A DNA stretch of 35,063 nt. Origin: Candidatus Woesearchaeota archaeon (GTDB lineage Archaea > Nanobdellota > Nanobdellia > Woesearchaeales > GW2011-AR4). The DNA lies in contig JAZDMC010000052.1 of assembly GCA_043801325.1 (NCBI GenBank), positions 1 to 35,063 on the forward strand, written 5' to 3'. The stretch's first letter is position 1. Each line of letters begins with the position of its first letter. The notes under the pieces were generated by a model. It saw nothing but the letters and a program-made list of their open reading frames with translations. It did not search any database and had not been told where the DNA came from. Shown piece by piece: positions 19,716-19,885 of the stretch. The translations under genes were made by a program, and so were the position numbers.

Positions 19716-19885
19716 TGGGAATATATTGGGAATATGCTGGGATGAGATTGGGAATACAGTAAGACGAAAAGTTTAAATATTTGGGAATAAATTGGGATTA
19801 TATTGGGAATATAATGGGACTGATATGGGACTGAGACTACAAGTTTACCGTCGAGAAAGGGCCTGGGAATGAAGTGGGAATGAGA
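19716..19885 (+). repeat. Array of eleven 11-bp-phased TGGGA(A/C)T iterons (4+5+2)
   Basis: TGGGA starts at 19716, 19727, 19738, 19749, 19782, 19793, 19804, 19815, 19826, 19864 and 19875. Spacings are 11, 11, 11, 33, 11, 11, 11, 11, 38, 11. All copies share one orientation. An 11-bp period cannot be a coding repeat, and all frames contain stops. Confidence 0.9.

What the first reader, a model, noticed from the sequence alone, without database searches (positions are those of the whole stretch)
19716..19885. Eleven helically phased 11-bp TGGGA(A/C)T iterons (4+5+2) upstream of a coiled-coil/winged-helix gene pair
TGGGA starts at 19716, 19727, 19738, 19749, 19782, 19793, 19804, 19815, 19826, 19864 and 19875. 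Spacing is exactly 11 bp within blocks, and the first gap is 33 bp (3 x 11). The first nine sites therefore lie on one face of the helix, all in one orientation. The 22-nt gap between blocks 1 and 2 contains TTTAAATATTT, an exact copy of the TATA-like element at 19698-19708 in front of ORF 19034-19672. The last two units of block 2 and block 3 form a longer imperfect repeat, TGGGAcTGAGACTA and TGGGAaTGAGACTA. The layout recalls the centromere parC of plasmid R1, where two blocks of five 11-bp iterons flank the par promoter and are bound cooperatively by ParR. It also recalls iteron-type plasmid origins. Here the only adjacent candidate binders are two orphan coiled-coil plus wHTH proteins, and no ParA/ParM-type NTPase or Rep is recognisable. 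This could therefore be an undescribed archaeal partition, replication-control or autoregulatory module. One further isolated CTGGGAAT lies at 20060-20067, about 65 nt upstream of the methyltransferase ATG and out of phase.
Basis: partly seen in the sequence, partly recalled or inferred. Interest (0 to 1): 0.8.

Follow-up and report, generated by a model that had tools for sequence, protein, structure and literature searches.

The report
Conserved phased repeat array in Woesearchaeota
Upstream of a gene pair conserved across Woesearchaeota/Nanoarchaeota archaea lies an equally conserved row of eleven short DNA repeats spaced one helical turn apart, most likely the docking platform for the two DNA-binding proteins encoded next to it and built like a plasmid centromere, though its function is unknown.

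Summary
Eleven TGGGA cores sit at the stated positions (4+5+2), and eight spacings are exactly 11 bp. Shuffled windows give at most 4 cores per 170 bp and at most 1 such pair.

The array is not an artefact or a recent duplication. All 12 genome loci found through the adjacent protein have it. So do 14 metagenome loci and 5 more distant loci, down to 28% protein identity. Cores are 93% identical between loci, against 44% at four-fold degenerate sites.

The two neighbouring proteins are not orphans. They form a conserved chromosomal pair in Woesearchaeota/Nanoarchaeota. Each has long N-terminal helices and a C-terminal winged helix.

The array brackets two back-to-back BRE/TATA elements. I read it as a cooperative operator or filament platform for this protein pair (confidence 0.55). 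Its geometry matches R1 parC, R388 stbS and tubC, but no motor NTPase, Rep protein or ribbon-helix-helix protein is present, so membership in those families fails.

A centromere-like role stays open (about 0.2). An origin role is unlikely, because Orc1 lies 18 kb away and there are no ORB elements.

I also found a second motif, AAAGTGAG, helically phased and under nucleotide-level selection. It extends from the methyltransferase leader into its coding sequence and is unexplained.

The parts
19716..19759 (+). Iteron block 1: four 11-bp units (TGGGA at 19716, 19727, 19738, 19749). It lies between the two BRE/TATA elements. In gene orientation the nearest TCCCA core starts at -48 from the ORF212 ATG.
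   Evidence: The TCCCA cores are invariant in alignment A3.
19782..19836 (+). Iteron block 2: five 11-bp units (19782, 19793, 19804, 19815, 19826), 33 bp start-to-start from the last unit of block 1.
   Evidence: The inter-block distance takes only a few values in relatives, mostly 33-35 or 44-46 bp, with 55 or 63 bp where a unit is degenerate.
19864..19888 (+). Iteron block 3: two units (19864, 19875). The second has the extended form TGGGAATGAGACTA, which recurs as AGTCTCATTCCCA in relatives.
   Evidence: family D2.
19696..19710 (-). P1: BRE (CGAAA) plus TATA (TTTAAATA) of the ORF212 gene. The TATA centre is 27.5 nt from the ATG, which implies a leaderless mRNA.
   Evidence: AAAAACGAAATATTTAAATAAA is nearly invariant; inverted pair I6. 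Promoter function is inferred, not shown.
19765..19779 (+). P2: a second BRE/TATA-like element (CGAAAAGTTTAAATA), 87% complementary to P1 and pointing away from ORF212. The predicted start near 19802 falls inside block 2.
   Evidence: AAATATTTAAACTTTTCGTCT is nearly invariant in the 12 loci of A3; I6. Activity and product are unknown.
19844..19855 (+). Conserved non-repeat element TTTACCGTCGAG (CTCGACGGTAAA in gene orientation), between blocks 2 and 3.
   Evidence: Function unknown.
19034..19672 (-). ORF212: long helices (9-61, 67-99, 109-139) plus a C-terminal winged helix (142-206). It is the most likely reader of the iterons.
   Evidence: The recognition-helix segment CSKSSFYR stays essentially unchanged in homologues down to 28% identity; the only variants seen are L012 KSSLYR and L011 NFCSKSS.
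18397..18963 (-). ORF188: helix 23-83, a MarR-like winged helix (100-162) and a conserved C-terminal tail. It is always adjacent to ORF212. The true start is probably the ATG at 18957.
19895..20018 (.). A-rich, 84% A+T stretch between the iterons and the methyltransferase promoter region. Its position is conserved but its sequence is not.
   Evidence: Its A+T content is within the range of other intergenic regions in the window.
20075..20453 (+). Second repeat family: AAAGTGAG boxes at 20075, 20140, 20310 and 20446, plus a degenerate copy (AAAGTGAA) near 20230. They lie in the methyltransferase leader and coding sequence and are spaced at multiples of about 10.6 bp.
20019..20102 (+). Two promoter-like elements before the methyltransferase ATG (20133): TGAAGGTTTTTAAAA (20019-20033) and TGAAGGGCTTTAAAA (20088-20102).
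   Evidence: family D6. The first is conserved in most relatives.

Best explanation
The TGGGA(A/C)T array (A[T/G]TCCCA in gene orientation) is a selected array of protein-binding sites. It acts as a multi-site operator on which the adjacent winged-helix/coiled-coil proteins assemble cooperatively.

Proposed mechanism:
1. The winged helix of ORF212 reads the invariant TCCCA core in the major groove, and its wing sits in the A/T-rich 4-6 bp spacer.
2. Protomers line up head-to-tail at 11-bp intervals, probably one coiled-coil dimer per two units (22 bp). ORF188 acts as partner or co-binder.
3. The resulting filaments form two main blocks that bracket two back-to-back BRE/TATA elements. P1 drives the leaderless ORF212-ORF188 genes. 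P2 points the other way, and its predicted start lies inside block 2.
4. Occupancy of the array therefore sets transcription of the pair's own genes and of the divergent transcript (autoregulation).

Shown: the array, its phasing, purifying selection on the cores, strict linkage to the gene pair, the protein folds, and conservation of the promoter-like elements.

Inferred: which protein binds, the stoichiometry, promoter activity, and the sign of regulation.
For: Phasing is far beyond chance. The array is present upstream of every ORF212 homologue examined, from 85% down to 28% identity.

Core columns are 93% pairwise identical. Four-fold degenerate sites of the neighbouring gene are 44% identical, and intra-unit spacers 56%.

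No other phased TCCCA-N6-TCCCA pair occurs in 163.5 kb from 13 loci. Of the six further loci scanned, five have none outside the array and one (L259) has a single pair inside the ORF212 homologue's coding sequence.

The reverse test started from DNA. Of the loci recovered with a 17-mer from the array, every one with a genuine phased array (14) carries the gene next to it.

Both proteins are predicted as long helices plus a winged helix. The ORF212 recognition-helix segment is essentially unchanged across the family, matching the invariance of the DNA core.

P1 and P2 form a conserved inverted BRE/TATA pair flanking block 1, and the P1 TATA centre is 27.5 nt from the ATG.

In distant lineages further units lie between the TATA and the start codon, the usual position for archaeal repression.

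Alternating unit types fit one dimer per 22 bp. That is the stoichiometry reported for StbA on stbDR repeats (bioRxiv 10.1101/2022.04.29.490116).
Against: There is no binding data.

Nine to sixteen sites are far more than simple autoregulation needs. Both proteins are about as conserved as Rpo11 or GatB. Together these suggest a structural role beyond gene control.

P2 has no identified product. The sequence downstream is A-rich and unconserved.

Only about 12-35 kb per genome was sampled, so further sites elsewhere (a regulon) cannot be excluded.
Confidence: 0.55

Rival explanations
1. The array is a chromosomal centromere-like site or chromosome landmark. It nucleates a large wHTH/coiled-coil nucleoprotein complex (a segrosome). 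That complex is moved or tethered by a motor or cellular structure encoded elsewhere, or works without its own NTPase as StbA does. Autoregulation would be a by-product, as in parC/ParR and tubC/TubR.
For: The geometry is that of known centromeres. R1 parC has 2 x 5 11-bp iterons around the promoter (PMC2241845). tubC has split blocks of direct repeats upstream of the wHTH gene tubR and acts both as repressor site and as centromere (PMC6009700). stbS has 2 x 5 repeats on an 11-bp cycle and needs no plasmid NTPase (bioRxiv 10.1101/2022.04.29.490116).

The array appears unique within the DNA sampled. It has many sites, and the proteins carry long, very strongly conserved coiled coils. In this window it lies about 18 kb from orc1, and that flank is syntenic in relatives, in line with origin-proximal bacterial parS sites (general knowledge).
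Against: No ParA/ParM/TubZ-like gene is recognisable in the 35-kb window or among the conserved neighbours. There is no sequence or significant fold match to ParR, TubR, AspA or StbA beyond a generic winged helix. There are no homologues on plasmids or phages. One array per genome has not been shown.
Confidence: 0.2
2. The sites are bound by a factor not encoded next door, or they act mainly through DNA shape. Under this reading a roughly 900-bp zone of 10.6-11 bp periodic G-rich/A-rich sequence is curved or wraps a chromatin protein. It sets the architecture of the divergent promoters of the ORF212 pair and the methyltransferase-rpoL operon.
For: The + strand GG periodicity at 10.6-11 bp is the strongest in the window and runs from about 19550 to 20450, well beyond the iterons. 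A second phased motif family, AAAGTGAG, continues into the methyltransferase gene. Two motif families alongside two proteins leaves the assignment open.
Against: An invariant 5-bp core with variable spacers is the signature of base-specific recognition, not of shape alone. The array tracks the gene pair even where the divergent gene is replaced by a different methyltransferase.
Confidence: 0.12
3. The region is a chromosomal replication origin or replication-control element. Iterons and AAAGTGAG boxes flank an A+T-rich unwinding stretch, and the wHTH pair serves as initiator or accessory factor.
For: There are two sets of oriented repeats either side of an 84% A+T stretch of about 125 bp. The intergenic region is unusually long for a compact genome (460 bp here, 600-980 bp in relatives). 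Genes are transcribed divergently from it. Iteron Rep proteins also use winged helices on 22-bp repeats (general knowledge).
Against: A canonical Orc1/Cdc6 gene lies 18 kb away, not adjacent. ORC1/Cdc6 is present in 206 of 208 complete Nanobdellota genomes (bioRxiv 10.64898/2026.05.13.725050). There is no ORB-like dyad plus G-string in inverted orientation. Neither protein contains an AAA+ or Rep domain. The A+T content is no higher than in other intergenic regions. GC skew in the window follows coding strand.
Confidence: 0.08
4. The repeats act in RNA. A P2-driven transcript carrying UGGGA repeats would titrate or bind an RNA-binding protein, or form a structured non-coding RNA.
For: A conserved promoter-like element (P2) points into block 2.
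Against: Folding is no better than shuffled sequence on either strand (z = +0.56 and +1.25). There is no Rfam or tRNA hit. Block 1 lies upstream of both promoters. Strict 11-bp spacing and near-multiple-of-11 gaps between blocks fit duplex-DNA geometry. Small ORFs downstream of P2 do not keep their reading frame between loci (inspection sequences).
Confidence: 0.03

Closest known systems
R1 parC / ParR (type II ParMRC partition)
   Same: Two blocks of 11-bp direct repeats in one orientation flank a promoter element. The total length is similar (about 160-170 bp). The site lies directly upstream of the binder's operon and serves as its operator (PMC2241845).
   Different: ParR is a ribbon-helix-helix protein, whereas these are winged-helix proteins with long coiled coils. 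There is no ParM. The locus is chromosomal and archaeal. The layout is 4+5+2 rather than 5+5. The pair's own promoter (P1) lies outside the blocks, and the element between the blocks (P2) points away.
R388 stbS / StbA
   Same: Two sets of direct repeats on an 11-bp cycle lie upstream of the binder's own gene. An HTH protein binds cooperatively as one dimer per two repeats. No dedicated NTPase is needed. The protein doubles as a repressor (bioRxiv 10.1101/2022.04.29.490116).
   Different: There is no detectable homology. StbA has no long coiled coil. stbDR is a 9-bp repeat with a 2-bp spacer and also occurs at other promoters. R388 is a bacterial conjugative plasmid.
tubC / TubR (type III TubZRC partition)
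   Same: A winged-helix centromere-binding protein is encoded immediately downstream of a split array of short direct repeats. The filament or ring nucleoprotein complex covers the promoter (PMC6009700).
   Different: There is no TubZ. Similarity to TubR is only a weak generic winged-helix match (Foldseek E = 0.099). The tubC repeats described there are 12-bp units or TTGAC-type iterons. TubZRC systems are on plasmids and prophages.
PhoB/OmpR-type pho boxes (established knowledge, not checked in a paper here)
   Same: The 11-bp direct repeats consist of a conserved core of about 7 bp plus an A/T-rich spacer of about 4 bp. Winged-helix domains bind them head-to-tail, two repeats per dimer.
   Different: These proteins have no receiver domain and no Trans_reg_C domain. 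This array has 9-16 sites rather than 2-4.
Iteron-type plasmid origins (Rep WH1-WH2 on ~22-bp iterons; established knowledge)
   Same: Oriented iterons with a 22-bp super-period lie next to an A+T-rich stretch. They are read by winged helices, and the binder's gene is autoregulated.
   Different: There is no Rep_3-type initiator. The locus is chromosomal and syntenic. A canonical Orc1/Cdc6 gene is present elsewhere in the window.

Membership tests
Type II ParMRC (R1 parC/ParR/ParM) | Two blocks of 11-bp direct iterons flanking a promoter, upstream of the binder's operon | tested here: met
   The layout is 4 + 5 units at exactly 11 bp with a conserved BRE/TATA-like element between them. This matches geometry only.
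Type II ParMRC (R1 parC/ParR/ParM) | Centromere-binding protein with a ribbon-helix-helix fold | tested here: not met
   Both neighbours are predicted as helices plus a winged helix. Foldseek matches are winged-helix proteins only.
Type II ParMRC (R1 parC/ParR/ParM) | Actin-like ParM ATPase in the same operon | tested here: not met
   No such Pfam or NCBIfam hit in any ORF of the window. The conserved neighbours are a tyrosine recombinase, a methyltransferase and Rpo11.
Type III TubZRC | wHTH binder encoded directly downstream of a split direct-repeat centromere | tested here: met
   This matches architecture only.
Type III TubZRC | TubZ tubulin-like GTPase partner, and TubR homology | tested here: not met
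   No tubulin/FtsZ-family hit in the window. The TubR match has Foldseek E = 0.099. There is no PDB sequence hit.
StbA/stbS | One dimer per two 11-bp-cycle repeats | tested here: inconclusive
   Unit types alternate in 123 of 156 adjacent pairs, which fits a 22-bp unit. Stoichiometry cannot be measured in silico.
StbA/stbS | Homology to StbA | tested here: not met
   No Pfam, PHROG or NCBIfam hit. tblastn of ORF212 finds nothing in the plasmid collection.
Iteron plasmid replicon | Rep initiator (WH1-WH2, Rep_3) next to the iterons, on an extrachromosomal replicon | tested here: not met
   No Rep domain. The chromosomal context is syntenic in all loci.
Archaeal oriC (Orc1/ORB) | orc1/cdc6 adjacent, with ORB dyad/G-string elements in inverted orientation around an unwinding element | tested here: not met
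   Orc1/Cdc6 is at 482-1555, 18 kb away. The repeats are unidirectional 11-bp units without a G-string.
Archaeal oriC (Orc1/ORB) | Replication starts here | not testable with these tools
   This needs marker-frequency analysis or skew analysis on complete genomes. Only 12-35 kb per genome was available.
PhoB/OmpR response regulators | Receiver domain plus Trans_reg_C winged helix | tested here: not met
   No such Pfam hits. Only the site geometry (7 + 4 bp direct repeats) is alike.
MarR family (ORF188) | Pfam MarR/MarR_2 match above threshold, with the dimer binding a palindrome | tested here: inconclusive
   MarR_2 scores E = 0.013, 16 bits against a cut-off of 27. Foldseek finds MarR-type winged helices at E about 1e-3. 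The sites here are direct repeats, not palindromes.

The most novel reading that the evidence does not exclude
Woesearchaeales and related Nanoarchaeota (Nanobdellota) may carry a previously undescribed chromosomal 'landmark' module. A bipartite region of about 1 kb holds two helically phased motif families: 11-bp TCCCA iterons and 10.6-bp-phased AAAGTGAG boxes that reach into a coding sequence. Two lineage-specific winged-helix/coiled-coil proteins would assemble it into a large nucleoprotein complex. That complex would serve as a centromere or chromosome-organising site without a locally encoded motor NTPase. This would be an archaeal chromosomal analogue of parC, tubC or stbS.
Probability: 0.2. 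Interest if true: 0.85.

Novelty: new variant of a known kind. Interest (0 to 1): 0.62.

Why it matters
Chromosome segregation and gene control in DPANN archaea are almost unstudied, and these organisms are uncultivated.

This is a non-coding element conserved about as strongly as housekeeping proteins. It is linked one-to-one with two uncharacterised DNA-binding proteins that have no Pfam family, and it is laid out like a plasmid centromere. That gives a concrete, testable protein-DNA pair: EMSA, footprinting or cryo-EM on about 200 bp of DNA with two small proteins.

If the element is only an autoregulatory operator, it is still an unusually clear case of archaeal head-to-tail winged-helix polymerisation next to BRE/TATA elements.

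If it is a centromere or landmark, it would be a new type of archaeal chromosome-partition element.

The AAAGTGAG boxes add a rare example of a phased DNA motif maintained inside a coding sequence through biased codon choice.

Tried and rejected
- RNA element: no Rfam family, no tRNA, and folding no better than shuffles on either strand.
- Small ORFs downstream of P2: a 'YRRE' peptide frame appears in several loci but is not kept in L005 (inspection sequences), so rejected.
- ORF212 and ORF188 as paralogues: BLASTP E = 25 and hhalign probability 1%.
- Known-family assignment: Pfam, NCBIfam and PHROGs give only weak coiled-coil noise and a sub-threshold MarR_2 hit. PDB sequence profiles give nothing. 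Foldseek against PDB and BFVD gives only generic winged-helix matches. Longer family members carry no extra informative domain.
- Mobile-element origin: ORF212 has no homologues in the plasmid or phage collections.
- Scan of viral contigs for four phased TGGGA units: it returned at least 120 unrelated 11-bp tandem repeats with no ORF212/188 homologue. The bare pattern is therefore not specific.
- Metagenome 17-mer scan: most hits were chance single matches (2-5 cores nearby). Only loci with a true array carried the genes. Two repeat-rich loci, L174 and L241, proved unphased and unrelated.
- PIP-box reading of the ORF188 tail (AQKELVNF): the Q-x-x-L-x-x-F pattern holds only in the close clade and is lost in distant homologues.
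- Origin reading: see rivals.
- Literature: no description of this array or these proteins was found.
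Full report
1. THE OBSERVATION

The sequence at 19716-19885 is as described. TGGGA starts at 19716, 19727, 19738 and 19749, then at 19782, 19793, 19804, 19815 and 19826, then at 19864 and 19875, all on the + strand. Tandem Repeats Finder independently calls a period-11 array and a period-22 row.

The window holds 68 TGGGA on both strands, and 11 of them fall in these 170 bp. In 300 dinucleotide-preserving shuffles of the window, no 170-bp stretch had more than 4 cores and no shuffle had more than one exact 11-bp pair. The observed values are 11 and 8.

The duplicated TTTAAATATTT, the longer TGGGA(C/A)TGAGACTA repeat and the isolated TGGGAAT at 20061 are all present.

2. 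CONTEXT

The window is a whole 35-kb contig from a Candidatus Woesearchaeota metagenome-assembled genome (source names). It carries ordinary chromosomal genes:
- Orc1/Cdc6 (482-1555), SerRS, LonB, TctA, PAC2 and IMPDH;
- a short XerA-like tyrosine recombinase (16936-17556);
- on the far side of the array, a small methyltransferase (ATG at 20133), Rpo11/L, GatB and an Mre11-like phosphoesterase.

The array lies in the 460-bp divergent intergenic region between ORF212 (19034-19672, - strand) and the methyltransferase.

3. THE NEIGHBOURING PROTEINS ARE NOT ORPHANS

ORF212 has 530 homologues and ORF188 has 170. Most are 60-88% identical and are labelled Woesearchaeota or Nanoarchaeota. The two genes are adjacent in other genomes. 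A profile search finds 381 clusters at 50% identity. No Pfam, NCBIfam, PHROG or PDB sequence match exists beyond coiled-coil noise and a sub-threshold MarR_2 hit for ORF188.

AlphaFold models give the following:
- ORF212 (mean pLDDT 74): helices at 9-61, 67-99 and 109-139, then a winged helix at 142-206.
- ORF188 (mean pLDDT 78): a 61-residue helix, a winged helix at 100-162, and a conserved tail.

Foldseek returns only generic winged-helix matches, namely Hop2 WH, MarR/ZitR, AspA and TubR, with E between 1e-3 and 1e-1. The two proteins are not detectably related to each other.

4. THE ARRAY IS CONSERVED WITH THE GENES

Protein-first test. Twelve loci were recovered from one-genome-per-species contigs through ORF212. 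All 12 carry phased TCCCA units (the reverse complement of TGGGA) immediately upstream of the gene, with the same plan:
- a proximal block of 4 units (up to 5), whose nearest TCCCA core starts about -48 from the ATG;
- a spacer;
- a distal block of 4-6 units;
- a conserved CGACGGTAAA element;
- 1-3 further units.

DNA-first test. A 17-mer from the array was scanned over metagenome contigs. Most hits were chance single matches. All 14 hits with a genuine phased array had the ORF212 gene next to them, including homologues of only 28-33% identity.

Five more distant homologues, reached through a third protein search, show the same picture. One of these loci lies on a 969-kb contig from a GC-rich lineage. 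There the unit has become GTCCYRGGA but is still 11-bp phased.

No other phased TCCCA-N6-TCCCA pair occurs in 163.5 kb from 13 loci. Of the six later loci, five have none outside the array. L259 has a single pair inside the ORF212 homologue's coding sequence.

Across 12 aligned loci, core columns are 93% pairwise identical. Spacer columns within units are 56% identical, and four-fold degenerate sites of ORF212 are 44% identical. That is purifying selection on the cores, not recent duplication.

The unit logo from 206 units is w-n-w-Y-A-[T/G/A]-TCCCA. The base before the core alternates between T and non-T in 123 of 156 adjacent pairs, against about half expected. These pairs are not phylogenetically independent. 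The alternation suggests a 22-bp functional unit. Distances between blocks cluster at 33-35 or 44-46 bp, roughly 3 or 4 unit lengths.

5. PROMOTER GEOMETRY

In gene orientation, the sequence CGAAA-TA-TTTAAATA lies just downstream of the last unit. Its TATA centre is 27.5 nt from the ATG. That is the geometry of a leaderless archaeal promoter (P1, 19696-19710).

The spacer between blocks 1 and 2 holds a nearly invariant AAATATTTAAACTTTTCGTCT. On the + strand this reads CGAAA-AG-TTTAAATA, with the same BRE-TATA spacing as P1. The repeat finder reports the two elements as an 87% complementary inverted pair (I6).

I therefore read them as divergent promoters. Block 1 lies upstream of both, and block 2 lies over the predicted start of P2 (about 19802). 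The product of P2 is unknown, because the sequence downstream is A-rich and unconserved. In distant lineages, additional inverted units lie between the TATA and the start codon, the classic position for repression. All promoter assignments are inferences from consensus and conservation.

6. MOST LIKELY MECHANISM

An invariant 5-bp core, A/T-rich spacers and strict 11-bp head-to-tail repetition next to a gene for a winged-helix protein together point to cooperative, base-specific protein binding.

Its recognition-helix segment (CSKSSFYR) is the most conserved part of the protein and stays essentially unchanged in the 28-34% identical homologues, which parallels the DNA core. The corresponding helix of ORF188 varies.

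The long helices would dimerise the protein and possibly pair it with ORF188. One dimer per two units would fit the 22-bp alternation. This is what was reported for StbA on its 11-bp-cycle repeats (bioRxiv 10.1101/2022.04.29.490116).

Occupancy next to and over the two BRE/TATA elements would regulate the pair's own genes and the divergent transcript. Confidence in this reading is 0.55.

7. RIVALS

- Centromere or landmark reading (0.2). It draws on the close geometric parallels with R1 parC (PMC2241845), tubC/TubR (PMC6009700) and stbS/StbA. It also draws on the excess of sites, the very strong conservation of the whole proteins, and the apparent uniqueness of the site. What it lacks is any motor NTPase in the window or among conserved neighbours.
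- Origin reading (0.08). Orc1/Cdc6 is 18 kb away and there is no ORB-type element. The A+T-rich stretch (84% A+T) is no richer than other intergenic regions.
- Unlinked factor or DNA shape (0.12). This stays open because the periodic zone is much larger than the array.
- RNA function (0.03). This is not supported.

8. BEYOND THE GIVEN COORDINATES

A second motif, AAAGTGAG (extended form AAAAGTGAG[A/G/T]GTT), occurs 3-9 times per locus. It is always on the methyltransferase-sense strand. It lies in the leader and the first few hundred nucleotides of the methyltransferase gene. Its density is 4.3 per kb there against 0.17 per kb elsewhere. The window copies are at 20075, 20140, 20310 and 20446.

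The copies fall in different reading frames. At the KVS codons before motif I, Val is GTG in 24 of 25 loci, although GTG makes up only 10% of Val codons in the window's genes. Ser is AGT wherever Ser is present, although AGT makes up only 13% of Ser codons. The neighbouring Asp and Gly codons vary freely. Selection therefore acts on the nucleotides themselves.

Spacings between successive boxes cluster at multiples of about 10.6 bp. For 42 distinct spacings the resultant length is 0.50-0.54, the best of all periods from 5 to 30 bp, and 0 of 5000 random sets reach it. GG periodicity on the + strand is the highest of the whole window from about 19550 to 20450.

The motif persists in lineages where the divergent gene is a different, RsmE-like methyltransferase. 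I cannot explain it. It may be the site of the second protein.

9. COMPARISON WITH KNOWN SYSTEMS AND NOVELTY

The array works like parC, stbS, tubC or pho-box arrays in geometry. It is not a member of any of these families. The binder fold (RHH) fails for ParR. The partner NTPases fail for types II and III. Homology fails for StbA, TubR, Rep and OmpR-type proteins.

Full-text searches found no description of the array or the proteins. The recent preprint on complete Nanobdellota genomes uses ORC1 only to rotate genomes.

I rate it a new variant of a known kind: a phased iteron operator or centromere-like array with a new protein family, in DPANN chromosomes. Interest is 0.62.

Noticed in passing
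window 20075-20453 (+), and the equivalent regions of L001-L012, L135-L236 and L253-L260: Second repeat family, AAAGTGAG(A/G/T)GTT, with 3-9 copies per locus on the methyltransferase-sense strand. It runs from the leader into the coding sequence in different reading frames and is kept by biased codon choice (GTG/AGT). Spacings cluster at multiples of about 10.6 bp. Function unknown.
   Followed up: partly
window 380-442: Three tandem 21-bp repeats (TTACTATTATGTAAACTAGTA) lie about 40 bp beyond the 3' end of the Orc1/Cdc6 gene (482-1555, - strand). A 2 x 23-bp repeat lies at 1960-2005. These are possible origin-associated or regulatory elements with no obvious ORB features.
   Followed up: no
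window 16936-17556 (-); L003-L012: A XerA-like tyrosine recombinase lies within about 2 kb of the ORF188 homologue in 10 of 12 related loci, in either orientation. The window's copy, like L004's, is a short 206-aa form matching only the C-terminal catalytic region of XerA. ORFs 16516-16860 and 17721-18272 next to it have no detectable counterparts in the 12 related loci.
   Followed up: partly
window 13700-14250: This region has the strongest AAA periodicity (10.3-11 bp) of the whole window. It spans the 430-bp intergenic region 13505-13934 and the start of ORF 13935-14363, and TRF also reports an A-rich 9-10-bp repeat at 13972-14029. It may be phased A-tracts (curved DNA).
   Followed up: no
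window 20061-20070: TGGGAATATG is an exact 10-mer copy of iteron unit 2 (19727-19736), located about 30 nt downstream of the 20019-20033 promoter-like element. It is not conserved in close relatives. However, some distant loci (L257, L258) carry extra TGGGA/TCCCA clusters near the methyltransferase end of the intergenic region.
   Followed up: partly
L013-L092 (viral contigs), e.g. L016: Arrays of 11-bp-phased TGGGA-containing direct repeats are common in phage and giant-virus contigs. One giant-virus MAG has a long run alternating GTGGGAATATT and GTGGGAATGCT, giving a 22-bp super-unit. None encodes an ORF212 or ORF188 homologue.
   Followed up: partly
window 18397-18420 (C-terminus of ORF188): The extreme C-terminus, AQKELVNF, has invariant Q, L and F in the close clade and resembles a PIP box. 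Distant homologues end differently, often with an aromatic residue (e.g. ...KLSYW..., ...PLNYWC), so a PCNA-binding motif is not supported. A conserved C-terminal docking peptide remains possible.
   Followed up: partly
window 19673-20132; L253, L257-L260: The intergenic region between ORF212 and the divergent methyltransferase is unusually long: 460 bp here and 600-980 bp in distant relatives. In the GC-rich lineages (L253, L259) the divergent gene is a different, RsmE-like methyltransferase, while the array, the boxes and Rpo11 stay in place.
   Followed up: partly
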